A model generated the notes under the pieces. The model was given only the letters and a program-made list of their open reading frames with translations. It searched no databases and was not told the DNA's origin. 20,933 bases of DNA from an uncultured archaeon (lineage in GTDB: Archaea; Asgardarchaeota; Thorarchaeia; Thorarchaeales; Thorarchaeaceae), in NCBI GenBank assembly GCA_964354495.1, contig CAYHAA010000016.1, positions 1-20,933 of the forward strand, given 5' to 3'. This document shows positions 714-19,053 of this stretch, piece after piece. The position numbers and the translations under genes are program-made. Within the stretch, counting starts at the first letter, position 1. Each line of letters starts with the position of its first letter.

Positions 714-3533
714 CTAAATTATCTGAGTGAGTGGCCACCAACGAGGAACGCGCGGGTCAAAAGCATCGGGTTGGATTATTCCTGTTCTATCAAGTGTAGC
801 TAGTAATTTTCTTAAGCCCAACATTTCGGTAGTAACCCATATGTAGACTAAAGCGAACGTAGAAGAATCAATTAGTGTGACGTGTCTATCGCTCGAGATA
901 TTATGTAAATCTCTGTGAAACGAGGGGGAACCAATTGTTATCCAATGAGTAGAATCGCCGCGGCATTTCTTGAGAACTGATAGAGCTTTGTCATGACTTT
1001 CAATCGGAGCGGCATTTTTCTGTATTTTCGCCTCAAAGCAGAATTTCAATGGATTCTCATCATCTTTGAAAACAAGATACGATTCCGGACGTGGTATTCT
1101 TGATCCGGTTCCTCTATCTCGAACTTGTCGTGCAATTAACTGCTTTGGCCAGGTATTGGCAATTCCGTCAATTGCCATTCGAACGCCTTCCTCAAAATCA
1201 TCATCATTCGAGAGAAGTTTTTCAATTATTTCATCATGGACAAAGAGATGTCTAGAAAGCAATCGTACATACTCAATGCGACGCTTTTCAATATCATCAA
1301 TTAGAAGTAGAGCTCGAGTTTTGGCTATAAAGAAATCATCACGCCTCATTCTGGCGTCCTTTTCTGGGAACGACTCGTAGGGAAATTCTAGAAGTTCCAT
1401 AGGTGTGGATATCCCAAGGTTGTTCAGCTGCTCAAGGATTTTCCGTCCATCCTCTCTTCGTCGTAATAATCTTGCCAACTCGATTTTGTCGTTATCAGCT
1501 CCTAACTCGAGACTATCGCACAGGAGCTGTAATTGCTTGATAAGGTGCTCATTGGTACCGATGTTATTTGGACTACATCTCCTAGCGATATCCAAGTAGT
1601 ATTGAAGCATTTCAACAGCATTAGGAACATATCGTTCAATCAGTTCTTCACCTGAACCGTCTTCGCCCATGAGCTGACCAATATCGTCCAGCGATTTTCC
1701 AGAAATCCATTCGTTTAGAAGAACTGCAATAATGAATGCATTCTTGGTTCGGTTCCTTGCTGATAAAGCAGTACTGCGGGCTGATTGATTGACCTTTGAA
1801 AGATATGTATTGAATGTTGAGGGATCTCTAATTTCTACAGGAACAAATACGCTATCAAATCGACTTGTTAAGCAGATATAGAATAGAACTGCCACTCGGT
1901 CAAAAGCACCTCTCTCATCAACAAGGTTTTCGGGCTTCAAATTGGAAACAAGGAAAGCACTGTCATCAGGTCGGGCTCCGCAAGATGCAGCAGCGAATCC
2001 AAGACTTGTGCAATTGTATCTCGGACCTGAGCCTGTATCCTGAGCGAAAACAAAATCAAATGTCTGAAGAGTTACAAGAGCGTCGCCAATCTTTTCTGAA
2101 ATCTGCGAGTCAATCTCTGGAGCTCCGAAACTTTTGGATACAATCTTTTCAAGCTCAGAAAGCGCTCCTAAGCCCTGAGAAATCCATGATAGAAGGGCAC
2201 CTTGTGTTTCAGAGGGGTTTCGTAGAAGATATGATTCCAGTTTTGGTGTTGGATTTCGAATGTACTCCTCAAGTGATGAATGCATTTCCAACTGGGCTTC
2301 GCAGAGAATAATGCTCTCTCCGGTTTCTTGATACTGAGGTCGACCTGCTCGCCCAGCCATATTTCGATACTGAATAGGCGATAGTGCTTGGGGACCAGCT
2401 TTTGTATCAATGAAGTAAACACGAGAAGCTGGTAGATTTACTCCAACACCCAAAGTTGTTGTTGCCACAAGGACAAGAATACGATTTTCGATGAATTGGT
2501 TTTCAATTAAGGACCTAAGATTTCTCCCTAGACCTGCGTGATGGTATGCAACACCAGTTGAAAACAAACTCTTGAAGGAATCTAGTGTTGATGATGATGA
2601 GTATCGAGTGTCTTTCAATTGATTGTGCAAATGCCGAATTTCATCTTCGGAGATGTCGATATCTCCTGACGCGATAGGCTCACTTAGGGTCCTAGATATT
2701 TGTTGCGAGATGGTTCGTGCTTCACGTCTTGTTGGTGCAAAAACAAGGATTTGTGGTTTCGTTGGTCCCTCTCGTTTCTGCAAATAGTTTCTACAGCATT
2801 CATTTAGTAAGGATAGCTTGCTTTCGATCCTATCCACTGGAAGCGGTTCCTCCCTGATAAGTTCCCCATCTTTGTAGAATTCGATTGTCAGTTTCTCCGG
2901 ATTTACAATGCCTTCAAAGAGAGAGTTTTTCCTCCATTTTGTAGATACATAATACTCGCCACATCCTAACCATTTATGAACCTCATCAAGATTCGATACT
3001 ACAGAACATAGAGCAAGAATTGGAGGATGCTCAGGGAGAGTTAGCAATCTTGTTATGGCTGCTTCCTGACGTGGACCCCGAGTGGACTCCTCAATGAAGT
3101 GAAGCTCATCTACTATAAGCAAATCACAGTTTAGTATCCTGTCTATTTCACTCTTTAGAAATAATTGAAAGAGTTCATATGTCAAAACTAGGAAATTGCA
3201 TTTGAGCGATGATTCATCATCAAAAGCTTGATCGCCGGTCCAGATTCCAACTTCTCTTCCAAACGGGGGTTTTTCGAGAAATGAAAACTTCTCATATATT
3301 TCTCGGGCCATCGCCTTATATGGCACTAGATATAGTATCTGAGCCGTGTGTTTTTCGTGAAGCTTTCGAACCACCGCCAATTCAGCGATGAGAGTCTTGC
3401 CACTGCCATGCGGCGCACTAACCACAAAACTCCTCCACTTCGAGTCAAGAAGGCCTTTATTCACGGCTTCTTCTTGTAAGGGCCAGAGTTGACCATCTGT
3501 CTTTCTGCTCAGTATTTCTAGATATGCTGGCAT
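714..3533 (-). CDS. Ski2/Hel308-like SF2 DExH helicase with a C-terminal Mrr-like PD-(D/E)xK nuclease domain
   Basis: Motif I APHGSGKT, II VDELH, IV LVFAPTRREA, GVAYHHAGL, V VATTTLGVGVNLPA, VI NMAGRAGRP. A winged-helix/ratchet region follows. The extra C-terminal region reads RPE-x(15)-FEAK...SPSF...VTLIDSSTF. The helicase call is confident; the nuclease domain is less so. Confidence 0.88.
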   Translation of the reverse strand: MPAYLEILSRKTDGQLWPLQEEAVNKGLLDSKWRSFVVSAPHGSGKTLIAELAVVRKLHEKHTAQILYLVPYKAMAREIYEKFSFLEKPPFGREVGIWTGDQAFDDESSLKCNFLVLTYELFQLFLKSEIDRILNCDLLIVDELHFIEESTRGPRQEAAITRLLTLPEHPPILALCSVVSNLDEVHKWLGCGEYYVSTKWRKNSLFEGIVNPEKLTIEFYKDGELIREEPLPVDRIESKLSLLNECCRNYLQKREGPTKPQILVFAPTRREARTISQQISRTLSEPIASGDIDISEDEIRHLHNQLKDTRYSSSSTLDSFKSLFSTGVAYHHAGLGRNLRSLIENQFIENRILVLVATTTLGVGVNLPASRVYFIDTKAGPQALSPIQYRNMAGRAGRPQYQETGESIILCEAQLEMHSSLEEYIRNPTPKLESYLLRNPSETQGALLSWISQGLGALSELEKIVSKSFGAPEIDSQISEKIGDALVTLQTFDFVFAQDTGSGPRYNCTSLGFAAASCGARPDDSAFLVSNLKPENLVDERGAFDRVAVLFYICLTSRFDSVFVPVEIRDPSTFNTYLSKVNQSARSTALSARNRTKNAFIIAVLLNEWISGKSLDDIGQLMGEDGSGEELIERYVPNAVEMLQYYLDIARRCSPNNIGTNEHLIKQLQLLCDSLELGADNDKIELARLLRRREDGRKILEQLNNLGISTPMELLEFPYESFPEKDARMRRDDFFIAKTRALLLIDDIEKRRIEYVRLLSRHLFVHDEIIEKLLSNDDDFEEGVRMAIDGIANTWPKQLIARQVRDRGTGSRIPRPESYLVFKDDENPLKFCFEAKIQKNAAPIESHDKALSVLKKCRGDSTHWITIGSPSFHRDLHNISSDRHVTLIDSSTFALVYIWVTTEMLGLRKLLATLDRTGIIQPDAFDPRVPRWWPLTQII

Positions 3534-7727: not shown

Positions 7728-8459
7728 TCAGGGTTTCATTCGTGTCTCAATATCTCCATACTTCTGTTTGAAGGCCAACATTTCATAGACCTCGCTTCCT
7801 CTCAGAATCGTGGTGTTACCTGCAATCTCATGGAAGGATCCATTAAGTAGATACTCAGCTTTCTCTGCATCTTTGGTACTTGTCACTACTAGAAAAATAT
7901 CGGAGCTCCAGAGATCTCGTGCATGCTTGAGTTTGGTAAGTGCACCTTCAATACTTCCAGATACCTGGACTTCAAAGACCTTGGCAGGAGATCCTGACTT
8001 GACACGTTTCCAGATCACATCATAGCGATTATGTTCATGAATGTACTCAGCCTCAGGATGCATGCCATATGATTCAGCTAGTTTCACGATCATCTCTTGA
8101 AGAGTGTCATGATCAAATGTCTTTGGCATCTGTCGTGTCCTTGAAGTTTCTTTTTCCGCCAAAGTTGTTTGGATTGTATTCGCGTAATGCTGAACTTGAA
8201 CATGCCATTCACGACCTTCAGAAACAGGCGAGAAAACCAAATAATCCCCTGCTTTGGTATCTGGATGCTGCCTTAAGATTTCGTCGAGCTTCAGTCTATT
8301 CTGCCTATCAATGTGAGCCTTAAAAATGACTCCATCTCCCCTCAGTTCAAAAGCCACATCGGCCGGCGGAAACCACTCACGATACCTCTCTAAGGCTCTT
8401 AGCTTGTACTTCAGAGCGGACTTTCTTAGCTGCAGTCGAAATTCGTGTGGTTCCTTCAA
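7728..8459 (-). CDS. Hypothetical protein: small N-terminal beta-rich (B3/EcoRII-N-like?) domain plus a C-terminal PD-(D/E)xK nuclease domain
   Basis: The C-terminal half HDTLQEMIVKLA...RYDVIWKR...VFEVQVSG...ALTKLKHARDLW has PD-(D/E)xK spacing (D...EVQ). The gene is co-oriented with dndA, lies 114 nt downstream of it, and has a TTG start. Confidence 0.7.
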   Translation of the reverse strand: MKEPHEFRLQLRKSALKYKLRALERYREWFPPADVAFELRGDGVIFKAHIDRQNRLKLDEILRQHPDTKAGDYLVFSPVSEGREWHVQVQHYANTIQTTLAEKETSRTRQMPKTFDHDTLQEMIVKLAESYGMHPEAEYIHEHNRYDVIWKRVKSGSPAKVFEVQVSGSIEGALTKLKHARDLWSSDIFLVVTSTKDAEKAEYLLNGSFHEIAGNTTILRGSEVYEMLAFKQKYGDIETRMKP

Positions 8460-8573: not shown

Positions 8574-9740
8574 CTACGCCGCCAACTTCCTCAGCCTTTC
8601 TGATTCCTCAGTCAGTCGCTTTGCTGCATAGTCTACTTCATCTCGGGTGGTAAATCTGCCGAGACCAATTCTTATCGAAGATGAGATCCTTTCTGAGGAA
8701 TGCCCCATCGCAGTAAGAACATGTGAAGCTTCGACTTTGTTGGTTCCACAGGCGGACCCTGTTGAGAAGGCAATTTCACGCTTCAACGAGTACTGCAATG
8801 CCTTGTTCTGCACTCCAGTGATTGAGATGTTCAGATTATGTGGAAGGCGTAGACGCGGATGACCATTCAGGTAAACATCATCAATTGTGTCTTTCATGTA
8901 GTCTAGCATGAAGTCACGCCAAGAGACGAGCCTTTTTTCCTCTTCGTGGTAAACGTTGTGTGCGATTCTTGTGGCCTCACCAAAACCAACAATCCCAGGA
9001 ACATTTAGAGTTCCCGAACGTAGCCCCTTTTCGTGTCCTCCTCCCAAAATGAGCGGCCGGATTCTTATCCGTGGCCTACGCTTCCTTATTACAAGGGCTC
9101 CGACACCCTTTGGCCCGTACATCTTGTGAGCGGAAACCGACAGCATGTCAACATCCGATTCCTTCATGTCCACTCTAATGTGACCGACGGCCTGAGCGGC
9201 ATCAGTATGAAAGAAGGCTCCTGCTTCGTGCGCAATCTTCACAAGTTCTCTGATGGGTTGGATTGAGCCAACTTCATTGTTGGCGGTCATTATCGTGACG
9301 AGTACAGTGTCTTGTTCAATGGCAGATTCCAAGTCCGCAGGGTCCACAATCCCTTCTTGGTCCACTGGCAGTACTGACAACCTAACTCCGAGTGTCTTTA
9401 GATATTCTGCTGGTTGCAGTACTGCTTTGTGCTCAACGTTGGAGGTTATCATATGCTTTCCTGCAGTCCCCAGTTGAGTCAATAGTCCAATTATCGCCAA
9501 GTTATCAGCTTCAGTTGCTCCACTTGTGAAAATGATTTCTGATGCTTCACAGTTTATCAGATCGGAGATTTGACTCCTAGCCTTCTCGACAGCTTCGTTA
9601 GCCTCAGCACCATAAGCGTGGTCTATAGAAGATGCGTTACCAAGATGTGTCGTAAAGTAGGGGAGCATGCTTTCCAAGACCTCTGGATCGGTCTGTGTCG
9701 TTGCATTGTTGTCCAAATAGATTGGTCTTTCAAGCTTCAT
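8574..9740 (-). CDS. dndA: Cysteine desulfurase DndA (IscS/NifS-like), sulfur donor for DNA phosphorothioation
   Basis: YLDNNATT, FTSGATEADN, PLP lysine in SAHKMYGPKG, catalytic Cys in STGSAC. The gene overlaps the dndE stop by 11 nt. Confidence 0.92.
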   Translation of the reverse strand: MKLERPIYLDNNATTQTDPEVLESMLPYFTTHLGNASSIDHAYGAEANEAVEKARSQISDLINCEASEIIFTSGATEADNLAIIGLLTQLGTAGKHMITSNVEHKAVLQPAEYLKTLGVRLSVLPVDQEGIVDPADLESAIEQDTVLVTIMTANNEVGSIQPIRELVKIAHEAGAFFHTDAAQAVGHIRVDMKESDVDMLSVSAHKMYGPKGVGALVIRKRRPRIRIRPLILGGGHEKGLRSGTLNVPGIVGFGEATRIAHNVYHEEEKRLVSWRDFMLDYMKDTIDDVYLNGHPRLRLPHNLNISITGVQNKALQYSLKREIAFSTGSACGTNKVEASHVLTAMGHSSERISSSIRIGLGRFTTRDEVDYAAKRLTEESERLRKLAA

Positions 9741-10122
9741 TGCTGTTCACCAAGTCCGATTCTGGAAGCATTTTTTGAAGATCCGACAGTGATTTCACCC
9801 GCGAGTGAACCATTGAGATGCCCCTATTCAAATGAGCCTTCAGCTGATGTAATCCGTCTCTTTCAAAATCCAGACCTTCTTCATTAAGCCGTTGTCTGAG
9901 CAGTACAAGAAAAAGCTCATCCCATTCCCCAGTTAGTGTGTAGCGGTTGAATTCCATACCTTCGTCATCCACGTCTGTGCTCGGTCTACTTGGGGTTTCA
10001 AGTGATAGACAAAGCCCAATACGAGAGAGAAGATTGGGAGTAATGCCTGTTCTTCGTTTCAGTACGGAGAGTTTGGAGGTGGATGATCTGCTGACCTTTA
10101 TCTTATTGAAAACCAATCTCAA
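9730..10122 (-). CDS. dndE: DNA sulfur modification protein DndE
   Basis: LKRRTGITPNLLSRIGLCLSLE, EFNRYTLTGE and LKAHLNRGI match the DndE pattern. The gene sits between dndD and dndA and has a TTG start. Confidence 0.92.
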   Translation of the reverse strand: MRLVFNKIKVSRSSTSKLSVLKRRTGITPNLLSRIGLCLSLETPSRPSTDVDDEGMEFNRYTLTGEWDELFLVLLRQRLNEEGLDFERDGLHQLKAHLNRGISMVHSRVKSLSDLQKMLPESDLVNSNEA

Positions 10123-10125
10123 AGA

Positions 10126-12123
10126 CTAGTTCACCCTCCGTCGTTTCTCTTTAATGCTTGACCTACCTGTTCGTTTGTCGAACCTAAGCTTGTAATCTTT
10201 GGCGACGTAAGGTTCGAGTGCGGATCTTAGGTCTTTTGTCAACTCTGTGTTTGTTACAAAAAGCACGATTTGTTCACTAACATGAGGGAGAAACTCCCGA
10301 GTAACGGACCGCCTATTGCTCTTATCGAGTCTTGCCAGCGGCGTGTCGATAAGGAATGGAAAGCCTCTATTGGTGGACGACATAATTGCACCCAGAAGTG
10401 AAATTGCATACAGCTGCTTTTCTCCTGCAGACAGGCGATCCGAATCCTCAACCACTCCATCGTTTCTCTCGAGTTTTGCAGTCAGACTGTCTGGATTCAT
10501 CAGGATTCTAGTGACCTGATTCTTGTCTGACCTCATGGCATTATACACGTTCTTCAAATTTGTCTGAAGACCCTCAATTTTGGCTGATGCCAATTTCCCA
10601 TGAAATTCCTTCAGAACATCCATTGCCGCTTTAGCATAGGCGAGCTTTCTCCCTTGCTTTGATCTTCCCATTATTGTTTCGAGTTCTTTGCCCCGTTCAA
10701 ATTCGGTAGCTGCAATTTTGTCTTCCAGTTTCCCAAGGGCCTCAATTGCATTGATTCTGTCATTCTCTATGGCTGTAAAATCTGTCAGAAGCGTGTGAAG
10801 TTTATCTATGTGAGGTCTAAGTGATTCCTCAGCAGGTACCCTATCTATTTGACGACGAGTAGTTTCTAGTTTTCTGCTAGTTGACTCTAACCGATCAAGC
10901 GACGATTTTAGATCGTCTGCTTTCCTTTTTGATTGTGCAAAAAGATTCATTGCATGTTGGATTTCGGAACTGGAGAAACCATAGACCTCACTGGCGTCGG
11001 GCCGAGGAAAGAGGCCTTTTGCGTCTTGCAGCAGTCTTTCAACATGCCTGTGAAATTGCTCTGCATTCTCTCGTCTGCTCATCTGTGCATCCTCATTGGC
11101 CATACCTCTTATTGCATTAGTGATTTTTTCAGCCATTTCGGACGCGTATCTTGCATCACGAGTCGCTTCATCACGGGCTAAGGTTTCCAGAGTTCGCTCT
11201 ACGAGCTTCGGCGCGTAAACAAACGGAAGTAGATCATTACACAGTTTCGATATCTCGATCCTTATTTCAATAAGCTCACGCTCACACAAGGCTTCATCTT
11301 TAAGCAGCGCATTTCTGGCTTCTGCATACTCTGAACCCTCACGTGCTAGCTTTTGCTCCGCTATTGAAACCTCTTCTTGCTTCTTCCTCGATTTCTCAGA
11401 GATACCTTCGATCTCACCTAGCAGAGATATCTTCTCCTTCTTCAAGTTCGAAACCTGCCTCTCAAGCTCATTCCACCTTTCCTTGTCCGAATCAATCTCA
11501 CTCTGAGCCAACTGGACAGAGAACAATTCTAGGTCCTTCCTCGCTCTCTCGACGAGATCGACTCCGGTTAATGAGAAGAAGCCATCTCGAAGCAATGTGT
11601 ATGTGTTATCATCTTCAGTGAACGTCTTGATCTTTTCTCCATCAAAGAACAAGAGCTGTGATACGCCAATAGGAAAGACATTCATAAGAAACTGACCGGG
11701 TTTTGATATTCTCCTGGTTTTGCCTTTACTATCCGATGCAACCAAGTCGACGTTTTCAATGACGTTTTCTCCTTTGAGAACCCTCCATGAGCGAGTCAGT
11801 ATTAAATCAAGTTCTTCGCCCCGTTCCATGTAGCTCATCACGAGTTTCACCGATGCCCCATCTTTCCTACTCCCAGAGGGAGTTTCGTGAACACGACTTG
11901 CCAGAAACCTGTCATAAGCCGTCTGTGACATGCCCTTGCCATTCACGAATCTACCGTATACACATAATGTCATTGCTTCCAAGAGCGTCGTCTTTCCTGC
12001 GCCATTATTGCCGCAGAAGATCACTACGGGCCGCTCTGGTTGTACTTTATCGTCAATCAACGATACGATTGCTTCTCCTTCAAATACTCCATAGTCTCTG
12101 ATTACTAGCTCTTTCAGAATCAA
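10126..12123 (-). CDS. dndD: DNA sulfur modification protein DndD (SMC/Rad50-like ABC ATPase)
   Basis: Walker A GNNGAGKTT, FFDGEKI, a long coiled coil, signature LSAGEKQL, and Walker B/D-loop LIDTPLARLD. A 4-nt TTGA overlap couples it to dndC. Confidence 0.95.
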   Translation of the reverse strand: MILKELVIRDYGVFEGEAIVSLIDDKVQPERPVVIFCGNNGAGKTTLLEAMTLCVYGRFVNGKGMSQTAYDRFLASRVHETPSGSRKDGASVKLVMSYMERGEELDLILTRSWRVLKGENVIENVDLVASDSKGKTRRISKPGQFLMNVFPIGVSQLLFFDGEKIKTFTEDDNTYTLLRDGFFSLTGVDLVERARKDLELFSVQLAQSEIDSDKERWNELERQVSNLKKEKISLLGEIEGISEKSRKKQEEVSIAEQKLAREGSEYAEARNALLKDEALCERELIEIRIEISKLCNDLLPFVYAPKLVERTLETLARDEATRDARYASEMAEKITNAIRGMANEDAQMSRRENAEQFHRHVERLLQDAKGLFPRPDASEVYGFSSSEIQHAMNLFAQSKRKADDLKSSLDRLESTSRKLETTRRQIDRVPAEESLRPHIDKLHTLLTDFTAIENDRINAIEALGKLEDKIAATEFERGKELETIMGRSKQGRKLAYAKAAMDVLKEFHGKLASAKIEGLQTNLKNVYNAMRSDKNQVTRILMNPDSLTAKLERNDGVVEDSDRLSAGEKQLYAISLLGAIMSSTNRGFPFLIDTPLARLDKSNRRSVTREFLPHVSEQIVLFVTNTELTKDLRSALEPYVAKDYKLRFDKRTGRSSIKEKRRRVN

Positions 12124-13577
12124 GTTTGCTCACCTGCGCCCTTCTCATGAAGTACCTCTTCCTCTGAGCGCCACTCCTCAGACATTATCTTGTCAATCGA
12201 CTTGGTGACAGATGTTCTTCGAGGCAAGCCCTGCATTACTGATTCCAGATCAAGAATCTTCTTCACGAGCTCTAGAGGTGTTCCAGACGCCTCGCAAAGC
12301 TTCTCTAGCATGGATTCCTCCTCTGCTCCGAATCGCGTGATGTCCTCTTTCATCCACTTTAGGTCGTACTCCATTACTTCGTGATATATCGAGGGAACGG
12401 TATCTTCCCAATCGCCCCGTTCGTTTCTCCATATCCTTCTTATTTCATGCAACTCATCTTCAGTTATCAAAGTGAAGTCTTTCTCTGGATGAGTACTTCG
12501 GAGCTTCTTCTGCGCTTGGAGCACCATTCTAAGAACTTTTGCGCTCACGTGTAGATAGTATGGCCCCCGCGCAATAGTTGTATCATCGTCAGTCTTGAAG
12601 AAGACACGTCCATCTCGGTGCTTATAGTCTCTGAATTCTCTCTTCTTGCTCGGATCTGTCGTGTCATAAAGAAAATCTCTGATTTCGAGAAGATCTTCCA
12701 TCCATTCTTCACCAGAGTCTACAAGGTTCTCCATTGACCTATCGCTAGAAACAAGAGTACAAATCCAGCATCCAAACCTCGTGTTTCCGCATGATGGAGT
12801 CGACTTATCGACTACAAGAGGACATTCATTGTCCTGGGCGGTTCTGTACATCCCTAAGAGTTGGTAGTTATCTCCACCCCAAGGAGGCGGCTGCTGTAGG
12901 AGGTATCCCCAAACATCTTCTAATGAGAAATCCTGTATGGGTGCATACACGTATGCACCAGAAAAAGTTGTATGACTATACAAATGCATCCTCTTTGATT
13001 TTCTCAAGGATAGAACTTGATCTCTGGTTGCACTCTCACCTTTTCTGACACCAAGAACGATGATGACTTCACCGTGATACGCTATGCGGTCCATGATGTA
13101 GTCGCTGGTAGGCTGAATCTTTAGACGATCTGTACACCATCGAAATAGGCGAGTAGGTGCAGCGTATCCTCTCCCAATAAGATTCACCCAGTATGTTTGA
13201 CTTAGTCTAGGTCGGACCATCTGGATATGGAAAGGGAGGTTATCTCTTTCTGCTGCTGTCCTCATTCTAGTGACTTGCTCTCGTAGATAGTCAAGTATGA
13301 ACGGATTCTCCACCATCGTATCGGAGGAAACAACATAGAGTGGCTTCTTGCGCTCTTTCTCAGATAGTCCTGAGATGGCCAACCAAACAAGCTGAAGCGC
13401 AGCTGATGAGTCCTTTCCACCACTATAGCCTACAATCCAAGGCCGCTCATCAGCCAAGTACAACGACCTGATTTCGTCGTACGTGCCGTCAAGCCGCATC
13501 TTGTGCAACGGCGGAAAGCTCTCAGCATCCTCCTCAATCAATGCACCAATCTCCTGCTTATCAGTGATTCCTGACAC
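12120..13577 (-). CDS. dndC: DNA phosphorothioation sulfurtransferase DndC (PAPS-reductase/PP-loop family)
   Basis: PWIVGYSGGKDSS (PP-loop), RWCTDRLKIQP, and ECPLVVDKSTPSCGNTRFGCWICTLV. Confidence 0.96.
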   Translation of the reverse strand: MSGITDKQEIGALIEEDAESFPPLHKMRLDGTYDEIRSLYLADERPWIVGYSGGKDSSAALQLVWLAISGLSEKERKKPLYVVSSDTMVENPFILDYLREQVTRMRTAAERDNLPFHIQMVRPRLSQTYWVNLIGRGYAAPTRLFRWCTDRLKIQPTSDYIMDRIAYHGEVIIVLGVRKGESATRDQVLSLRKSKRMHLYSHTTFSGAYVYAPIQDFSLEDVWGYLLQQPPPWGGDNYQLLGMYRTAQDNECPLVVDKSTPSCGNTRFGCWICTLVSSDRSMENLVDSGEEWMEDLLEIRDFLYDTTDPSKKREFRDYKHRDGRVFFKTDDDTTIARGPYYLHVSAKVLRMVLQAQKKLRSTHPEKDFTLITEDELHEIRRIWRNERGDWEDTVPSIYHEVMEYDLKWMKEDITRFGAEEESMLEKLCEASGTPLELVKKILDLESVMQGLPRRTSVTKSIDKIMSEEWRSEEEVLHEKGAGEQT

Positions 13578-14647
13578 TCTATTTCTTCTGCTGCTAGATT
13601 AACTCCGAGAATCTCCTTTATTGCAATTGATGTTAATTTTAGATTGAGATGGGCTTTACTTATTTTTCCACCTTCCATAGCCACACCTTCCCACATTTTG
13701 GTATTTCCTCGCCTCCAATCTAAAGAGTGGAGAACCATAAGGCGTCCCCTCCAACTGTCTGGATACTGCTCAATCAATGAACGCCCAGCAATTCCAAGCG
13801 CCACCAGTACGACACCATGGGAGTGCACGAACTTCCTTCGCAAAACGCTGCTCTTGATTTCTCCATTGAGAAAGGATTTCCACTCAGGGATCACAACAGA
13901 AACAGCATTCCAGTAGTCAATTGCCAGTTTCTTCTCACTAGCGCTCACATTATCACCTTTGGTTTTATTCATCAAGTTACAGAAAGCTTGGTAGACATTA
14001 CTAAGTGTGAAGAGTTTTATTGATCGGTTTGATAGAGAAGTCTTCTCATATTCGACAGCTCCTCTAAACAGTGGAACGGTTGAAACGAGTTCGAGAGTTG
14101 CTGCAGCTACCGGATCTCGTCTATCATATAGTATGCTTAATGATTTTGTCGGCCGAACGGCATATCTGTTGAGATCTGCAAACATTTGTTGAGATTGCTT
14201 TAGGTCAGAATCAACAAATATCACAAGTGGGATTGCTTCTGACGCCAACTCTTTCTTCTTCTGAATTGCATCGAATATTGCTGCTCTGCGATGCTGCCCA
14301 TCATTTATCACGAATTTCGCAGATGCAGGGACCGTAAGAAATCCTTGGTCAGATGATGAATCATCGTTAATTGGGGTGAATACAATCTCCGAATCAACTG
14401 ATACAGTTAATGCAGAAAACACATATGAATTGGGATTATCTAGAATGTATCGTACTATATCTGGTACACGACGGTGGTTGATAGTTCTTTGTGCTCTGAA
14501 GTCAGGGGGCAATTCATCTTCATTGTATACCGTTATCTTGCATACTGTATCAAGAGGGCACATAGTGATATAGTACTCTCGACCTGCTTGAATTCCCCTT
14601 ATGGCAGAGAATGAAAGACTGAACGACTTGCTTTCAATACTTTTCAT
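13538..14647 (-). CDS. dndB: DNA sulfur modification protein DndB (DGQHR-domain regulator)
   Basis: AIRGIQAGREYY, RAQRTIN..RV..I..YIL, INDGQHRRAAI, and QQMFADLNRYAVRP..SL.ILYD.RD. It is the first gene of the operon and overlaps dndC by 40 nt. Confidence 0.95.
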   Translation of the reverse strand: MKSIESKSFSLSFSAIRGIQAGREYYITMCPLDTVCKITVYNEDELPPDFRAQRTINHRRVPDIVRYILDNPNSYVFSALTVSVDSEIVFTPINDDSSSDQGFLTVPASAKFVINDGQHRRAAIFDAIQKKKELASEAIPLVIFVDSDLKQSQQMFADLNRYAVRPTKSLSILYDRRDPVAAATLELVSTVPLFRGAVEYEKTSLSNRSIKLFTLSNVYQAFCNLMNKTKGDNVSASEKKLAIDYWNAVSVVIPEWKSFLNGEIKSSVLRRKFVHSHGVVLVALGIAGRSLIEQYPDSWRGRLMVLHSLDWRRGNTKMWEGVAMEGGKISKAHLNLKLTSIAIKEILGVNLAAEEIECQESLISRRLVH

Positions 14648-14845
14648 GTTTCACGCCAAATTGCCTAGTAGAATGTACGTCAAAATAAGACTTCCGGAAA
14701 TCAGAATAAAACATACCAATCTGGTGTTATGACATGAGTGGATTCGTTCCATTCAACAGAAGAAGTCTTCTTTACCTCTAGGAATAAACAAGATTCTGAG
14801 AATCCGAACCGCAGAGGCAAAGGTCATTCTTGAAACATAGATTAC

Positions 14846-14889
14846 TAAGACTTTTTTAAGGACGCTTCAAATCTGTCGGGAGAGGAGGT
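14846..14889 (+). promoter_or_regulatory. Putative archaeal promoter (TATA) and SD for the ParB operon
   Basis: TTTTTAAG at 14853-14860, preceded by TAAGAC. GGAGGT lies at 14884-14889, 6 nt before the ATG at 14896. Confidence 0.6.
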
Positions 14890-14895
14890 TGTATT

Positions 14896-15720
14896 ATGTC
14901 TTCATATGTAGTTGATGAAATCCCAGTCAAATCGGTTGTAGCATCGAAATCTCAGAGTAGACAAAGAAAAGTCATGGATGATATCGATGAGCTTGCAAAT
15001 AACATTAGAGTGTTCGGATTGATTCATCCTGTTACTGTATTTGAGAAGGATGGAAAGTATGAGCTAATAGCAGGACAAAGAAGATTCCTTGCAGTTCAAA
15101 AGCTAGGATGGAAAACAATCCCAGCGCATGTTGTACCTGAGCCCGAAGACCCTATCAAAGCCAAGGCATATTCTTTCTCGGAAACATTCATGAGAACGGA
15201 TATGGTTGAACAGGATCTAATAGAAGCTTGCACTTTCTTCTACAATACCTACGGGAATATGGCATTGGTAGCCACTGAATTGGGCTTGCCTTACCCCAAG
15301 GTGAGAAAGTACGTAAAAATGGCTCAACTTCCCGAATCATTGAAAAAGAAGGTTCAAGATGGCACTATAAGTTTCGACAGAGCGCTCAAAGCAGTAGAAT
15401 TCTCTACTGATGAGAATCTCAATGTTGACGAAGAAAAGTCCTTGGAGCTAGCGATAGAATTGCAGAAGATGACTGGCTCACAAGTCAAGCAGGTTGGAGA
15501 ATTGGTCAGAGCTGAGCCCTCTGCAACTGTGTCAGAGCTTGTTGAAGCCGGCGCCAAGCCACCAAAGATCAGAGAACTTAGGATTGAATTGCATACAAGT
15601 GGCTATAAGTCACTCTCAAAATACTCAAAGGACACCAAGGCAACATCTGAATCCGAAGCAGCAGTAGAACTCCTCCTGGAAGCTCTTTCGAACAAGGGAT
15701 ACTACGAAGAGGAGGAGTAA
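14896..15720 (+). CDS. ParB/Spo0J-family protein (ParB N-terminal domain, HTH, and a C-terminal RHH-like dimerisation segment)
   Basis: DELANNIRVFGLIHPVTV...YELIAGQRRFLAVQKLGWKTIPA (arginine patch GxxRxxA). HTH YGNMALVATELGL...V...KMAQLP. No parA is present in the window. Confidence 0.9.
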   Translation: MSSYVVDEIPVKSVVASKSQSRQRKVMDDIDELANNIRVFGLIHPVTVFEKDGKYELIAGQRRFLAVQKLGWKTIPAHVVPEPEDPIKAKAYSFSETFMRTDMVEQDLIEACTFFYNTYGNMALVATELGLPYPKVRKYVKMAQLPESLKKKVQDGTISFDRALKAVEFSTDENLNVDEEKSLELAIELQKMTGSQVKQVGELVRAEPSATVSELVEAGAKPPKIRELRIELHTSGYKSLSKYSKDTKATSESEAAVELLLEALSNKGYYEEEE

Positions 15721-15721
15721 G

Positions 15722-16441
15722 TTGGCACTCAATTCACGGGAAATTGCTGAGCTGATTATGAGTGTGGGCACCCACTCAAAAGAGCGACCGCTTTCGCCAA
15801 TCGAGGTGGCTGAAAGAATGAGAGTGCTCTTAGATGAATACGGCTCTAGGTCAGCAGTGGCAAGGCGGCTCGGATTGAAAGGCGTTGACATGGTGAACAG
15901 GTTCCTCGCATTGCTGAAACTTCCTCTTACAGTTAGGAATGCCATTGGCTGGAGAGGACCACAAGAGGGTGAGATAGGCTTAGACATCGCATATCGTATC
16001 TCAACACTAGACAATCCTAGGGAACAGGATACACTAGTGAAAGTTGTGATTCAGGAACCTCTTAGCAAAGAAGAAGTCCTTGACATCGTAACCTTACGAA
16101 ATAAGAATCCAGAGATGACGATTGAGGACTGCATTGAAACCAGGATTAAGATCCGCCCTATTGTAGAAACAGGGTATCTTTTGGTCTTCGAGATAAATGA
16201 AACTACGATCAAATTACTCAGAGAGAATACTGTCGAAAACGTAGAGAAGCATCTGGAGGAAATAATTGAGTGTGTGGTAGAAAAAGCTGAAATTGAATCA
16301 ATAAGATACAAATCCGGTATTGCGATATTCGTCCTATCAGAGAGGGGTTACCAGCAACTAACCATGTTTGCCAAGGAGAGAGGAGTAGACAAGAAAGATC
16401 TGTTAGATATTCTGATCTCTAAGAGGGTCAATGAACTATGA
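15722..16441 (+). CDS. ParB-like HTH protein lacking the N-terminal ParB (CTPase) domain
   Basis: PLSPIEVAERMRVLLDEYGSRSAVARRLGL...VNRFLALLKLP is the ParB/Spo0J HTH block and begins about 20 aa from the N-terminus. The TTG start lies 1 nt after the upstream TAA, and there is an ATGA overlap with the next gene. Confidence 0.8.
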   Translation: MALNSREIAELIMSVGTHSKERPLSPIEVAERMRVLLDEYGSRSAVARRLGLKGVDMVNRFLALLKLPLTVRNAIGWRGPQEGEIGLDIAYRISTLDNPREQDTLVKVVIQEPLSKEEVLDIVTLRNKNPEMTIEDCIETRIKIRPIVETGYLLVFEINETTIKLLRENTVENVEKHLEEIIECVVEKAEIESIRYKSGIAIFVLSERGYQQLTMFAKERGVDKKDLLDILISKRVNEL

Positions 16442-17463
16442 CTAGCGAATTGGACCATGCTAGAATTGCTTCGGATGGTAGTATCTTCATGGGCAAGAAC
16501 TTCTGTGCTGATGGATTCAGCTTCCAGAGAAAGTACTCAATATATACTCATATCCACGAGGACCATATCGGACAATTCGATAGTAGTCTAGGCTATTGTG
16601 ACCTGATTATAGCTTCAAAAGCAACTGTGGATTTGCTTAAGGCTATTAAAGGAGAGTATCTATCTATAAGAGATAATCTTGTTGGATTGGCTTTTGAAAA
16701 ACCGCTGAATCTTGATGATGGAACCGTCACTTTGTTCCCAGCAACGCACATATTGGGATCTGCACAAGTACTTGTCGAAACTGATGACAAGAGAATAGTC
16801 TATACTGGGGATTTTGATTGTCCGGGAACCGAACCAGTGGAATGTGATATTCTGATCATTGACTCAACACATGGAATGACGAAGTATGATTACAGTATGA
16901 TTGAAAAGGACAAGGCCAAAGCAGAGCTTCTTGAATTAGTCAGGTCTTTTCACCGGAATTCGGAATTGCCTATTTTGGTTCGTGCGTTTCGGGGGAGACT
17001 GCAGAGCATTATGCACGAACTCAGAAGCACCAGAACATGCAATGGAGTGCTGTTTGTATCCTCAGAACCGGACTATAGGATAGCGAAAGTGTATCAGGAA
17101 TATGGGTATGCATCAACTCCATTACAGGAAATCGATTCGAGGCTGCCTCTCAGCACGCAGGTCAATGATCCAGTGTATATTGCATTCTTGCCGATTGGAG
17201 CTGGCAACAATTATGATTCATCTCATAACGTCATAGAAATCAACAGCTATGGAGTGAGCGGGCCCTACACAAGAATCAACAAGAGGAAGTATAGATTATG
17301 TTGGTCCGACCATGCGGACTTCAAAGGGCTGATTGGCTATATTGAAAAATCAGGAGCGCGAACTGTCATAACCGATACAATTCGTGGTCAAGGTTATCCT
17401 CTTGCCGAATACATCAACAAGGAGATGGGAAATCGTGTGAAAGCTATAGCAGGTGGAGGTTAA
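16438..17463 (+). CDS. Metallo-beta-lactamase-fold nuclease of beta-CASP type (SNM1/Artemis/aCPSF-like)
   Basis: THIHEDH (HxHxDH), ATHILGSAQV, VYTGDF, IIDSTHG (motif A) and WSDHAD (motif B). Confidence 0.88.
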   Translation: MTSELDHARIASDGSIFMGKNFCADGFSFQRKYSIYTHIHEDHIGQFDSSLGYCDLIIASKATVDLLKAIKGEYLSIRDNLVGLAFEKPLNLDDGTVTLFPATHILGSAQVLVETDDKRIVYTGDFDCPGTEPVECDILIIDSTHGMTKYDYSMIEKDKAKAELLELVRSFHRNSELPILVRAFRGRLQSIMHELRSTRTCNGVLFVSSEPDYRIAKVYQEYGYASTPLQEIDSRLPLSTQVNDPVYIAFLPIGAGNNYDSSHNVIEINSYGVSGPYTRINKRKYRLCWSDHADFKGLIGYIEKSGARTVITDTIRGQGYPLAEYINKEMGNRVKAIAGGG

Positions 17464-17504: not shown

Positions 17505-18326
17505 TTACAAGGATAGCTGTGTGTAATGTGACTCCAAGTTCAATATCGTGGCAATCTCCTTGTATCTATTTCGAAGTGTTACCTCGCTTACACCAGCTGC
17601 CTCAGCGATCTTGACCTGCCCCAATCTGATTCCTGATTGGTAACATGCTAAGTATATGGCAGCTGCAGCTATTCCCCAAGGATCTTTCCCTGATGCCAAA
17701 TCAATCGCTCTTGCAGATTGCAGAGTCTGCTTCGAGATTTCCTCAATCTCTTTAGGGGCGCCTAGCAGTTCACATACCCTTTCAACCACTTTTAATGGGT
17801 CATATTGCGGGATGTCCTGATCAATGATTGACGCTACTATTCTGTAGGAACGACCTATACTCTTCGAACTTACTTTTGCCAGAGGAGCAATATGAGATAG
17901 CTGCCGCGGATTTCCATTTATCCTGCATGCAGCATATATAGCTGCAGCAGCAATGGATGCTGCTTTCTTCCCTCTTATGAAACCACCTCTTCCTGCTTTG
18001 CCCAGAATCTCAAATGCAAGTTCTCTTGTTTCCCGAGGCAATTCTAGCGCAGACATAATGTTGCTGAAAAGGAACATTAAGGTCGGAACTGTGTGTTTCT
18101 GTGACTTCCTTGCACTTTCATCCAAAACTCGAATCTCTAGGTGTTCCTGTTTTGATGGCCTATGGCTCAAGGTGAATTGTGACTCCCCTTTTCTCTCGTA
18201 TTTCAATCTCTTTACTACAGCTCTGCTATTATCACCACTCCTTGATGAACTTCTATCTTCCAATAGGTGTTCACTGAGAGTCAATTGTTTGAACCGACTT
18301 GATCTCTTCTTCTCCCCCTTCTTCAT
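17505..18326 (-). CDS. tfb: Transcription initiation factor IIB (TFB) paralogue lacking the N-terminal zinc ribbon
   Basis: Two cyclin repeats (IRGKKAASIAAAAIYAACR; SGKDPWGIAAAAIYLAC) and a BRE-binding HTH (IAEAAGVSEVTLRNRYKEI). The preferred start is the ATG at 18326, 8 nt after an AGGTGA SD; the ORF track extends to a TTG at 18383. Confidence 0.9.
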   Translation of the reverse strand: MKKGEKKRSSRFKQLTLSEHLLEDRSSSRSGDNSRAVVKRLKYERKGESQFTLSHRPSKQEHLEIRVLDESARKSQKHTVPTLMFLFSNIMSALELPRETRELAFEILGKAGRGGFIRGKKAASIAAAAIYAACRINGNPRQLSHIAPLAKVSSKSIGRSYRIVASIIDQDIPQYDPLKVVERVCELLGAPKEIEEISKQTLQSARAIDLASGKDPWGIAAAAIYLACYQSGIRLGQVKIAEAAGVSEVTLRNRYKEIATILNLESHYTQLSL

Positions 18327-18712
18327 ATAGCCCATCACCTTGCAGAAACATTCTGGCAATAATGCAGATGACGCAATCTTCAAAAAACCCCTTGAAAAGA
18401 GAACCAGATTGATACCAATAGAGGATTCAAACTTTTAACGCTTACTGATGTATATCCTCAGAACTGTAGCACTCGTAGTTGGGATACATGAAATAGAGTT
18501 TCACATCCTTCTAAATGAATCCCTTGGATTATGTCTTCATACCCTTGATTCTAGACTGGCTGGTGTGTACAAAGGATTTCAAGTGGAAACTCCGATTGCG
18601 TTCAATGAATTCTACATCGCTGATATCGCTTTGAGCATCATTTGCAATCCACCAATGAGTCTGGTCAACGAGTTCTAGGTCGCCAAGAACGGTCAGCCTA
18701 TCTACCAGAAGA

Positions 18713-18871
18713 CTACTTCTTTGAACGCCTCTTGGGTCTGAGGTCTCTTGTGTGGCACTTTCTGCACTTGACCGCCTTGAGCGGATTAGTTGCTCCACAG
18801 TATCTACATACTGATTTGTACAGCAAGTAGTGCTGTGCAAGCCTGCGTTTTTCGATGTCCGCTATTGGCAT
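18713..18871 (-). CDS. rpl40e: Large-subunit ribosomal protein L40e (52 aa; below the ORF-track cutoff)
   Basis: Manual translation gives MPIADIEKRRLAQHYLLYKSVCRYCGATNPLKAVKCRKCHTRDLRPKRRSKK*. It has the CxxCGATNP...CRKC...LRPK signature and a GAGGT SD upstream. Confidence 0.96.
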   Translation of the reverse strand: MPIADIEKRRLAQHYLLYKSVCRYCGATNPLKAVKCRKCHTRDLRPKRRSKK

Positions 18872-18949
18872 CTCACTTCGACCTCTTCATCTTGATGGCA
18901 GTTAGAGTAATCTCTGACGAGCCCACTCGGGCTTTCCACCAGTGTTCTG

Positions 18950-18957
18950 TTTTAAAA
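18950..18957 (-). promoter_or_regulatory. Putative TATA box upstream of rpl40e
   Basis: TTTTAAAA in the sucD-rpl40e intergenic region, about 80 nt upstream of the ATG. Confidence 0.45.
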
Positions 18958-19053
18958 GCTTGTGCTCCGGTCCGCCAGTAATACTAGGAAGAGGCGTTGC
19001 TGAGCGTTGGTGGACAGGCCTGTTCTCATGACTCCTGTCTGCAGGATCTTGCT

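What the first reader, a model, noticed from the sequence alone, without database searches (positions are those of the whole stretch)
14896..17463. Uncharacterised three-gene operon ParB - ParB(deltaN) - beta-CASP nuclease, head-to-head with dnd: candidate new defence system
Seen: one promoter/SD and tight coupling (1-nt gap, then an ATGA overlap) of a ParB with an intact arginine patch, a ParB-HTH paralogue and an MBL nuclease. There is no parA, rep gene or origin, so partitioning is unlikely. The operon shares a 248-nt divergent spacer with dndB, which is itself a ParB-superfamily (DGQHR) protein. I know of no named system with this composition; ParB-fold defence modules such as SspE or DUF262 types use other effectors. 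Inference: an NTP-gated DNA clamp/sensor that loads or licenses a nuclease, possibly as the restriction arm for PT-marked self DNA.
Basis: partly seen in the sequence, partly recalled or inferred. Interest (0 to 1): 0.82.

Follow-up and report, generated by a model that had tools for sequence, protein, structure and literature searches.

The report
ParB-ParB-nuclease module linked to phosphorothioation
Three tightly coupled genes (a ParB-type NTP-binding DNA binder, a ParB paralogue with only the DNA-binding part, and a beta-CASP metallo-nuclease) form a conserved, apparently undescribed module that in bacteria and archaea sits next to, or inside, DNA-phosphorothioation (dnd) operons, so it is most likely a new partner of that DNA-marking defence system.

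Summary
Three co-directional genes lie at 14896-17463: ParB_N+HTH, HTH_ParB only, and a beta-CASP MBL. They have a 1-nt gap and an ATGA overlap, and are divergent from dndBCDEA across 248 nt.

The trio is a conserved module, not a one-off.
- A ParB2 profile finds 212 clusters (50% identity) at E<=1e-30.
- In 80 metagenome loci the order ParB1-ParB2-MBL is kept (53/55 and 49/52 testable).
- An SNF2 helicase usually lies upstream (29/34).
- Natural ParB2::MBL fusions exist, and one archaeal variant swaps the MBL for an AlwI-like nuclease.
- Of 25 loci with >=3 kb of flank, 18 carry dnd or PAPS-reductase genes. Some are single tight operons such as dndBCDE-SNF2-ParB1-ParB2-MBL.

The host is a Thorarchaeota-like Asgard archaeon. 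Neither dnd nor the trio occurs in 27 congeners. The genome has no adjacent parA and no DndFGH- or GmrSD-type partner.

PADLOC gives no match, and I found no description in the literature searched.

Best reading (about 0.55): a multi-subunit, ParB-NTPase-gated nuclease that serves as the restriction or effector arm of phosphorothioation, analogous to SspE/DndI. Main rival: an alternative DNA-scanning and nicking apparatus for the modification enzyme. Function is inferred, not shown. The scan had noted this only on this same stretch.

The parts
14648..14895 (.). 248-nt divergent spacer between dndB and ParB1. It holds a T-rich TATA-like stretch about 40 nt before the ParB1 ATG, a GGAGG Shine-Dalgarno sequence, and three copies of AAGACTT/AAGTCTT (14687, 14763, 14847).
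   Evidence: Sequence read; repeats. Promoter and operator roles are inferred, not tested.
14896..15720 (+). ParB1: ParB/Srx-type N-domain (QxR, GQRR, E96-T97-x-x-R100), ParB HTH domain, helical linker, and a C-terminal helix pair preceded by an extended segment (RHH-like).
   Evidence: Pfam ParB_N 8.8e-17. TIGR00180 above cut-off. The family profile hits Noc/ParB/Spo0J structures at 4e-22 to 2e-14. AF2 model pLDDT 86.5. 40-member alignment.
15722..16441 (+). ParB2: a paralogue without the NTP-binding N-domain. It has a Noc/ParB-type HTH DNA-binding domain plus a C-terminal beta-alpha-alpha-beta-beta-alpha-alpha domain. Its family signature is SVG[TS]HxxxRxL[ST]PxEV.
   Evidence: Pfam HTH_ParB 6.2e-07. 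212 representative clusters at E<=1e-30. AF2 pLDDT 91. Foldseek to the Noc DNA-binding domain 7e-05, TM 0.74-0.83 by target.
16438..17463 (+). Beta-CASP metallo-beta-lactamase nuclease with an intact metal site (H38xH40xD42H43, H104, D125, motif A D142, motif B H292). The motif C histidine is replaced by a conserved (V/I)ITDxxR.
   Evidence: The tree places it in the single clade of trio-linked MBLs.
8574..14647 (-). dndA-dndE-dndD-dndC-dndB (listed in + coordinate order; transcribed B to A). This is the phosphorothioate modification operon, the recurrent genomic partner of the trio.
   Evidence: Pfam DndB 5e-122, PAPS_reduct, AAA_23/SMC_N, DndE 1.5e-25, Aminotran_5 4.9e-87. PADLOC DndB 2.5e-141.

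Best explanation
The trio is the local, SNF2-less form of a conserved module (SNF2)-ParB1-ParB2-MBL that works together with DndC-family DNA phosphorothioation genes. Most likely it is the restriction or effector arm of that system. ParB1 and ParB2 bind DNA through their Noc/ParB-type HTH domains. ParB1's ParB/Srx N-domain binds and probably hydrolyses an NTP as a switch. ParB2 physically carries the beta-CASP nuclease. The NTP state, set by whether the DNA carries the host's phosphorothioate mark, decides whether the nuclease cuts (unmarked invader DNA) or the complex is released (marked self DNA). This is the logic shown experimentally for the single-chain ParB-superfamily NTPase plus nuclease proteins SspE and DndI. 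Shown here: gene order, conservation, fusion, catalytic-residue conservation, genomic linkage to dnd, island context, and absence of parA. Inferred: NTP gating, phosphorothioate sensing, DNA rather than RNA as substrate, and the defence phenotype.
For: (1) Conservation as a unit. ParB2 family: 212 clusters at E<=1e-30. In 80 pattern-found metagenome loci, ParB1 is upstream in 53/55 testable cases, MBL is downstream in 49/52 (plus 2 fusions), and SNF2 is upstream in 29/34. (2) Physical coupling. There are natural ParB2::MBL fusion proteins (582 aa; the C-terminal half is 32% identical to the window MBL, E 1e-41). (3) Effector swap. In another genome of the same phylum the order is ParB1 - ParB2-like - AlwI-like REase - PAPS reductase, next to a type I R-M system. 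(4) Linkage. 18 of 25 loci with >=3 kb of flank carry dnd or PAPS-reductase genes. These include tightly coupled single operons: dndB-C-D-E-SNF2-ParB1-ParB2-MBL in L123 (junctions from a 7-nt gap to a 4-nt overlap), L102, L116 and L157, and dndBCDEA-trio in L098. Two further contigs show the same. (5) The SNF2 partner resembles the helicase cores of the defence helicases ZorD, DpdE and DrmD (1.8e-64 to 3.9e-34). Neighbours include GmrSD/DndI-like, HARE-HTH-Mrr, PIN and type I R-M genes. (6) In L001 and L094 the trio sits with ParB_N::N6_N4-methylase fusions instead of dnd, as expected of a restriction module that pairs with different marks. (7) In this genome no DndFGH (dnd_assoc_1/2/3) or GmrSD-type partner was found. 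dnd and the trio are both absent from 27 congeners. (8) SspE and DndI show that a ParB-superfamily NTPase coupled to a nuclease can read phosphorothioate (PMC11662687; PMC13251355, abstract).
Against: There is no experiment. The closest solved relatives of the nuclease by profile are RNA-cleaving beta-CASP enzymes (aCPSF1/FttA, Cas14, CPSF73). Its sister clade is a solo archaeal gene in RNA-processing synteny, so the substrate could be RNA. The window copy lacks the SNF2 partner and has Thr in place of the family's conserved Asn in the ENxxR box. Several loci have only a lone PAPS reductase, or DndC without DndD/DndE (L033, P0150 contig, L002, L097, L099). That fits a role in the modification step just as well. 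7 of the 25 long loci show no dnd gene within reach.
Confidence: 0.55

Rival explanations
1. The module belongs to the modification arm. It would be an alternative DNA-scanning and nicking apparatus (ParB pair = DNA binder with RHH-like ends, like DndE; SNF2/ParB1 = NTPase; MBL = nickase, like SspB) that delivers a DndC/SspD/BrxP-type PAPS-reductase enzyme to DNA.
For: Several loci have a PAPS-reductase enzyme but no DndD/DndE: L033 and the P0150 contig (DndC - DndI-like GmrSD - SNF2 - trio), L002, L097, L099, L135/L153. In the complete Pseudomonadales chromosome behind L033 no DndE was found, and the only DndD-like ATPase sits 1.7 Mb away in a Pbe/Ssp-like cluster. The lone enzymes score best with BrxP/SspD models. 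With a GmrSD protein alongside, the L033 operon resembles SspABCD-SspE in logic.
Against: Most linked loci already have complete dndBCDE(A), which established knowledge says suffices for modification. SNF2 helicases of the ZorD/DpdE/DrmD type plus a nuclease are typical of restriction arms. The trio also occurs with methylase fusions and no PAPS reductase (L001, L094). The nuclease can be exchanged for a REase-fold enzyme.
Confidence: 0.18
2. It is a stand-alone defence system that merely shares defence islands and operons with dnd and does not read phosphorothioate. For example, it could be an NTP- or DNA-damage-triggered abortive-infection nuclease, possibly cutting RNA.
For: 7 of 25 long loci have no dnd gene in reach. 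The module occurs on integrase-bounded islands and MGE-like contigs. Rakesh et al. argue the same decoupling for DndFGH (PMC10853773). The nearest relatives of the nuclease are RNA-cleaving enzymes.
Against: Operon-level fusion with dndBCDE, with junctions from a 7-nt gap to a 4-nt overlap, occurs in several unrelated loci. An 18/25 linkage is far above what a rare gene set like dnd would give by island co-location alone.
Confidence: 0.13
3. It is a DNA-repair or processing module that deals with breaks or adducts arising at phosphorothioate sites (beta-CASP exonuclease of the SNM1/Apollo or ligase-associated type, plus an SNF2 translocase).
For: The best NCBIfam hit is the ligase-associated DNA damage response exonuclease (2.4e-25). 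L098 and L157 carry a further MBL-RMMBL gene, and L098 a LigD_N gene, nearby.
Against: The score is far below the family cut-off (89 vs 325 bits) and no ligase or Lhr helicase is linked. Distribution is sporadic and strain-specific (0 of 27 congeners, 3 of 400 genomes in the phylum). The context is a defence island. The nuclease can be swapped.
Confidence: 0.06
4. It is a partition or maintenance (or anti-defence) module of a mobile element, that is, a real ParB centromere-binding pair.
For: ParB1 passes the parB_part domain model. The early-branching relatives L001, L002 and L094 lie on MGE-like contigs with integrase, transposase and many small ORFs.
Against: No ParA is adjacent in any locus examined. 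The module was not found in 72,556 plasmids or 50,697 phages, and gave only one weak hit in IMG/VR. It always comes with a nuclease. It is embedded in chromosomal dnd operons.
Confidence: 0.04

Closest known systems
SspE and DndI (GmrSD-type: DUF262 ParB-superfamily NTPase + DUF1524 HNH nickase), phosphorothioate-sensing effectors of SspABCD and IscS-DndBCDE
   Same: A ParB-superfamily NTP-binding domain is coupled to a nuclease and genetically tied to phosphorothioation genes. Such proteins even co-occur with the trio (L033, P0150 contig, L098).
   Different: SspE and DndI are single polypeptides, whereas this module has three (usually four) subunits. They have a DGQHR-type DUF262, whereas ParB1 has a canonical ParB_N+HTH of the Noc/Spo0J type. 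Their nuclease is HNH, here it is a beta-CASP MBL. The module also has an extra HTH-only paralogue and an SNF2 helicase. No Pfam GmrSD domain is present in the trio.
DndFGH
   Same: A multi-subunit, dnd-linked module that combines an NTPase/translocase with a nuclease.
   Different: The protein families are unrelated. The dnd_assoc_1/2/3 models find nothing in this genome.
PbeABCD (the archaeal Dnd partner)
   Same: It is the only described archaeal partner of Dnd, and it also contains a helicase.
   Different: Pbe consists of a PLD-ResIII-helicase, an SMC-like ATPase and two small proteins, and it does not cleave DNA (PMC6459918). It has no ParB and no MBL.
Chromosomal and plasmid ParB/Noc/KorB CTPase clamps
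   Same: Same N-domain and HTH folds. The GxRR and QxR motifs are kept.
   Different: There is no ParA and no known parS. The C-terminal end is RHH-like instead of the usual dimerisation domain. The partner paralogue lacks the N-domain, so a symmetric N-gate cannot close. A nuclease is an obligate partner.
Beta-CASP nucleases (aCPSF1/FttA, CPSF73, Cas14, SNM1A/Apollo/Artemis, ligase-associated exonuclease TIGR04122)
   Same: MBL motifs 1-4 and beta-CASP motifs A and B are conserved.
   Different: The protein is short (about 340 aa). The motif C histidine is replaced by ITDxxR. There is no RMMBL (PF07521) match in this clade. The score is below every curated family cut-off.
IbrA/IbrB and DndB/DndC pairs (ParB-superfamily protein with a PAPS-reductase enzyme); the IbrAB comparison is from my own knowledge
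   Same: A ParB-fold protein recurs next to a PAPS-reductase-family enzyme. L099 has such a pair right after the trio.
   Different: Those pairs have no nuclease and no HTH-only paralogue.

Membership tests
ParABS partition system | ParB with ParB_N + HTH domains | tested here: met
   ParB_N 8.8e-17. TIGR00180 67.1 bits against a cut-off of 58.45.
ParABS partition system | Cognate ParA ATPase encoded alongside | tested here: not met
   There is none in the window. AAA_31 hits lie only on other contigs. No ParA was seen in the Pfam-listed gene tables or ORF scans of the trio loci inspected; the 80 pattern loci were screened only with a seed set that held no ParA.
ParABS partition system | Centromere (parS) repeats | tested here: inconclusive
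   Only chance-level palindromes were found. Three AAGACTT copies lie in the spacer.
Beta-CASP metallo-beta-lactamase nucleases | MBL motifs 1-4 (D, HxHxDH, H, D) and beta-CASP motifs A (D/E) and B (H) | tested here: met
   D25, H38, H40, D42, H43, H104, D125 and H292 are invariant. D142 lies in the DxTxG motif.
Beta-CASP metallo-beta-lactamase nucleases | Motif C (His in CPSF/RNase J and in ligase-associated exonucleases; Val in SNM1/Artemis, the latter from my own knowledge) | tested here: not met
   The aligned position reads (V/I)ITDxxR in the trio and solo archaeal clades, against THG/VHG/LHG in the outgroup.
Ligase-associated DNA damage response exonuclease (TIGR04122) | Score above the curated cut-off, and linkage to an ATP-dependent ligase and an Lhr-type helicase | tested here: not met
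   89.1 bits against a cut-off of 325. True members (L047-L070) sit next to a DEXH helicase and form a separate clade.
SspE / DndI (GmrSD) | DUF262 (GmrSD_N) + DUF1524 (GmrSD_C) in one protein | tested here: not met
   The trio has no such Pfam hit. PF03235 is absent from the whole genome, with the control ringing in 7 genomes.
DndFGH | Homologues of DndF, DndG and DndH | tested here: not met
   TIGR03236/7/8 give no hit in the genome (no positive control rang). PADLOC gives no Dnd hit for the trio.
PbeABCD | PLD-ResIII-helicase PbeA and SMC-like PbeC | tested here: not met
   The domain content of the trio is different. The composition of Pbe is taken from PMC6459918.
Any PADLOC v2 defence system | A match to a system component model | tested here: not met
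   ParB2 and MBL give no hit. ParB1 gives only a weak hit to the ParB part of a methylase model.
Proposed (SNF2)-ParB1-ParB2-MBL module | Gene order ParB1-ParB2-nuclease, the ParB2 signature SVG[TS]HxxxRxL[ST]PxEV, and an MBL of the trio clade | tested here: met
Proposed (SNF2)-ParB1-ParB2-MBL module | SNF2 helicase directly upstream | tested here: not met
   Absent in the window, as in L001, L002, L094, L098, L099 and L014. Present in 29/34 testable metagenome loci.

The most novel reading that the evidence does not exclude
A fourth kind of phosphorothioate-dependent restriction machine, found from Asgard archaea to Proteobacteria. A canonical ParB-type NTP switch, paired with an N-domain-less paralogue, rides on DNA (with an SNF2 motor in most versions), reads the phosphorothioate mark, and licenses a beta-CASP nuclease recruited from an archaeal housekeeping enzyme.
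Probability: 0.45. Interest if true: 0.85.

Novelty: new variant of a known kind. Interest (0 to 1): 0.72.

Why it matters
Most dnd clusters lack a known restriction partner, so what enforces phosphorothioate-based self/non-self discrimination in them is an open question. This module is a concrete, widespread candidate: more than 200 sequence clusters, in bacteria and archaea. It uses the chromosome-segregation ParB switch and a beta-CASP nuclease, a combination I did not find described in any defence system. It can be tested directly with a handful of genes. If confirmed, it would extend ParB NTP-switch biology to immunity, add a nuclease class to phosphorothioate systems, and give the first candidate Dnd partner in Asgard archaea.

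Tried and rejected
- Word-based homologue search with ParB2 found only itself.
- The search for related loci on metagenomes with ParB2 alignments failed twice for lack of a conserved stretch. It was replaced by a degenerate DNA pattern.
- The IMG/VR scan with the MBL alignment gave one weak hit.
- PLSDB plasmids gave only ligase-associated exonucleases, and INPHARED phages gave nothing.
- The ParB2 hit in G036 turned out to be an ordinary ParB, not the module.
- A palindrome/parS search in the window gave only chance-level sites.
- No tRNA or Rfam family marks the island border.
- Foldseek of the ParB2 model was dominated by the HTH half, so the C-terminal domain remains unassigned.
- The paper PMC4241021 (ParB/Srx superfamily survey) is not held, so I could not check whether it lists a ParB-MBL association.
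- I considered and rejected Pbe, DndFGH, SspE/DndI, PRTRC and the ligase-associated repair cassette as identities (see membership tests).
- I considered whether the Hel308-like helicase at 714-3533 replaces the missing SNF2. Nothing supports this.
Full report
**Observation.** The three ORFs are as described: 14896-15720, 15722-16441 (TTG start) and 16438-17463, all on the + strand.
- Gene 1 matches ParB_N (8.8e-17) and passes the parB_part domain model.
- Gene 2 matches only HTH_ParB (6.2e-07).
- Gene 3 is a metallo-beta-lactamase. Its best named relative is the beta-CASP ligase-associated exonuclease, at 2.4e-25 and 89 bits, far below the 325-bit cut-off.
- The 1-nt gap with GGAGGAG before the TTG, the ATGA overlap, the GGAGG before the first ATG and the 248-nt divergent spacer to dndB were all read directly.
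- The TTG start is right, because the first 12 residues follow the family consensus.

**Setting.** Reading along the window:
- a GNAT gene;
- a Hel308-like helicase;
- a Dam methylase, a second methylase and a DpnII-like enzyme;
- an unassigned 243-aa ORF;
- dndA-E-D-C-B;
- the trio;
- a TFB paralogue;
- sucD/sucC.

SucD is 82-87% identical to proteins of Thorarchaeota MAGs, so the host is a Thorarchaeota-like Asgard archaeon. Across 27 other genomes of the genus only the sucD side (from about 18.7 kb) and, in three of them, the GNAT gene are conserved. Neither dndC nor the trio nuclease has an orthologue there. Parts of the methylase cluster and the 243-aa ORF recur in two congeners without dnd. 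The genome has a single ParB_N gene, this one, and ParA/MinD-like genes only on other contigs. It has no match to DndFGH models or to GmrSD_N.

**The trio is a conserved module.**
- The nuclease has about 35 close relatives at 28-37% identity. The first neighbourhoods inspected already showed ParB_N - HTH_ParB - MBL in the same order.
- A profile of five ParB2 proteins, run against 1.84 billion representatives, found 212 clusters at E<=1e-30, nearly all about 235 aa long.
- One cluster is a 582-aa ParB2::MBL fusion. Its C-terminal half aligns to the window nuclease at 32% identity, E 1e-41.
- A degenerate DNA pattern for the ParB2 signature returned 80 metagenome loci, and 79 of them carry a ParB2 gene.
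- ParB1 lies directly upstream in 53 of 55 testable loci. The MBL lies directly downstream in 49 of 52, plus 2 fusions. An SNF2 helicase lies upstream of ParB1 in 29 of 34.
- The usual form is therefore SNF2-ParB1-ParB2-MBL. The window has the SNF2-less form, as do L001, L002, L094, L098, L099 and L014.
- In another genome of the same phylum, a ParB1 - ParB2-like pair is followed by an AlwI-like REase-fold protein and a PAPS reductase, next to a type I R-M system. This is an effector swap.
- The module is rare and patchy. It is in 3 of 400 genomes of the phylum (one of those hits proved to be an ordinary ParB). It is absent from PLSDB and INPHARED and gave one weak IMG/VR hit.

**Linkage to phosphorothioation.** Of 25 loci with at least 3 kb beyond the cassette, 18 carry dnd or PAPS-reductase genes.

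| Locus | Arrangement |
|---|---|
| L123 | dndB-C-D-E-SNF2-ParB1-ParB2-MBL, junctions from a 7-nt gap to a 4-nt overlap |
| L102, L116 | dndC-D-E-SNF2-... |
| L157 | SNF2-trio-dndC-D-E |
| L098 | dndBCDEA-trio plus a 455-aa gene |
| ERZ25072076 contig | ParB_N - 101 aa - MBL (no HTH_ParB hit on the 101-aa product) - 457 aa, convergent with dndBCDEA |
| L033 and a 436-kb contig | DndC (PADLOC 4e-110) - GmrSD (HEC-06/Orf5/SspE-like) - SNF2 - trio |
| L002, L099, L135/L153 | trio with a lone BrxP/SspD-like PAPS reductase |
| L014, L174 | trio next to an IscS/DndA-like gene |
| L001, L094 | trio with a ParB_N::N6_N4-methylase fusion, no PAPS reductase |

The SNF2 partner resembles the helicase cores of ZorD, DpdE and DrmD.

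**Protein anatomy: ParB1.**
- The family keeps the ParB boxes QxR, GQRR and ENxxR.
- Its profile hits Noc, ParB and Spo0J structures at 4e-22 to 2e-14.
- The window copy has Thr97 where at least 90% of members have Asn.
- The AF2 model (pLDDT 86.5) shows the N-domain, the helical HTH region and a terminal helix pair preceded by an extended segment. That is compatible with a ribbon-helix-helix that would pair only in a dimer.

**Protein anatomy: ParB2.** The model has pLDDT 91. It is a Noc-type DNA-binding domain (Foldseek 7e-05) followed by a beta-alpha-alpha-beta-beta-alpha-alpha domain.

**ParB1-ParB2 complex test.** The test gave only weak support.
- Score 0.35, best control 0.00.
- The pass mark is reached by 51 of 78 solved complexes and by 2 of 108 mismatched pairs.
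- At scores of 0.60 or below, however, it is reached by only 5 of those 78 solved complexes, and by all 4 mismatches that passed.
- The runs agree in at least 96% of contacts, and the partner pLDDT is at least 84.
- I treat the heterodimer as an open hypothesis.

**Protein anatomy: the nuclease.**
- All metal ligands and beta-CASP motifs A and B are kept. The motif C histidine is replaced by ITDxxR.
- By profile, its closest solved relatives are aCPSF1/FttA, Cas14, CPSF73 and INTS11, followed by SNM1A, Apollo and Artemis.
- In a maximum-likelihood tree the 48 trio-linked nucleases form one group (UFboot 85, aLRT 98; 84% of bootstrap trees). They group, unresolved (the fork is drawn open), beside the solo genes of Bathyarchaeia and other archaea.
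- Those solo genes sit in a housekeeping synteny with the CCA-adding enzyme, LigT, a kinase, an RNA-binding protein and HMG-CoA reductase.
- The module's nuclease therefore looks recruited from an archaeal housekeeping enzyme, and its substrate (DNA or RNA) is not settled.

**Mechanism.** Shown: a fixed gene order, a Rosetta-stone fusion of ParB2 with the nuclease, conserved catalytic and NTP-motif residues, operon-level coupling with dnd, defence-type neighbours, and no ParA. Inferred: the ParB pair binds DNA, and ParB1's NTP state gates the nuclease carried by ParB2. The host mark would set that state, as shown for SspE and DndI. Both are ParB-superfamily NTPase plus HNH nuclease proteins whose NTPase responds to phosphorothioate (PMC11662687; PMC13251355, abstract). 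I put this at about 0.55.

The main rival (0.18) is that SNF2 plus the trio form an alternative scanning and nicking apparatus for DndC-family enzymes. This is suggested by loci that have DndC or a lone PAPS reductase but no DndD/DndE. One example is a complete Pseudomonadales chromosome in which no DndE was found, and the only DndD-like ATPase belongs to a distant Pbe/Ssp-like cluster. The other rivals are:
- a phosphorothioate-independent defence system that only co-locates with dnd (0.13);
- a repair module (0.06);
- a partition or maintenance module of a mobile element (0.04).

**Comparison with what is known.** PADLOC v2 has no model for ParB2 or the nuclease. The comparative survey of Dnd neighbourhoods lists HKD, HNH, REase, URI, HEPN and PIN nucleases, but no MBL and no ParB pair (PMC10853773). 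Pbe is composed differently (PMC6459918). Full-text searches for combinations of ParB, MBL/beta-CASP, SNF2, PAPS reductase and phosphorothioation found no description of the module. The library is incomplete, so an existing description cannot be excluded.

**Verdict.** This is a real, conserved and apparently undescribed dnd-associated module. It is best filed as a new variant of the known kind 'restriction or effector partner of phosphorothioation built on a ParB-superfamily NTPase and a nuclease'. Earlier notes of this scan concern this same stretch only.

Noticed in passing
window 14683-14856: The heptamer AAGACTT/AAGTCTT occurs three times (14687, 14763 inverted, 14847) in the 248-nt dndB-ParB1 spacer, out of 8 copies in the whole 20.9-kb window. 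It may be an operator for DndB or the ParB pair.
   Followed up: partly
L098:11828-13195; L159:5827-7197; the 457-aa gene on the P0018 contig: A roughly 455-aa protein with no Pfam or PADLOC match follows the nuclease in the window's nearest clade. It may be a fifth component. It is absent from the window.
   Followed up: partly
L004-L043 (e.g. L013:6905-12474): Bathyarchaeia and other archaea carry a solo orthologue-like MBL in a conserved block with the CCA-adding enzyme, LigT, an AAA_17 kinase, an RNA-binding protein (PF01877) and HMG-CoA reductase. This looks like an uncharacterised housekeeping beta-CASP enzyme.
   Followed up: partly
L097:1-3029: A variant cassette in a genome of the same phylum reads ParB1 - ParB2-like (192 aa) - AlwI-like REase fold - PAPS reductase, beside a type I restriction R subunit and a YgjP peptidase.
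   Followed up: partly
L001:5861-7705; L094:12315-14354: ParB_N::N6_N4 DNA methylase fusion proteins lie next to the trio on MGE-like contigs that have no PAPS reductase.
   Followed up: no
window 7728-8459: The 243-aa ORF after dndA has a 78%-identical DNA copy in a congener (G015:C123), next to the Dam and second methylase genes, in a genome without dndC. It seems to travel with the methylase cluster rather than with dnd.
   Followed up: partly
window 17505-18383: A TFB paralogue (two TFIIB repeats) lies convergent with the nuclease. It is not conserved at DNA level in the genus, so it appears to be part of the acquired block.
   Followed up: no
window 18692-18968: A stretch of about 270 nt upstream of sucD is 76-87% identical in nearly all congeners. 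It has no tRNA or Rfam match and marks the right border of the variable region.
   Followed up: no
L183 (G400:C1:3059000-3077000): The Pseudomonadales genome that carries the DndC-GmrSD-SNF2-trio operon also has, 1.7 Mb away, a cluster of an SMC-like ATPase, a 157-aa gene, a PLD-helicase (PbeA-like), a DUF4007 gene (SspB-like) and a 1163-aa protein.
   Followed up: partly
L175:3413-5223: Two tandem ParB1 copies (288 aa each) precede ParB2 in one metagenome locus.
   Followed up: no
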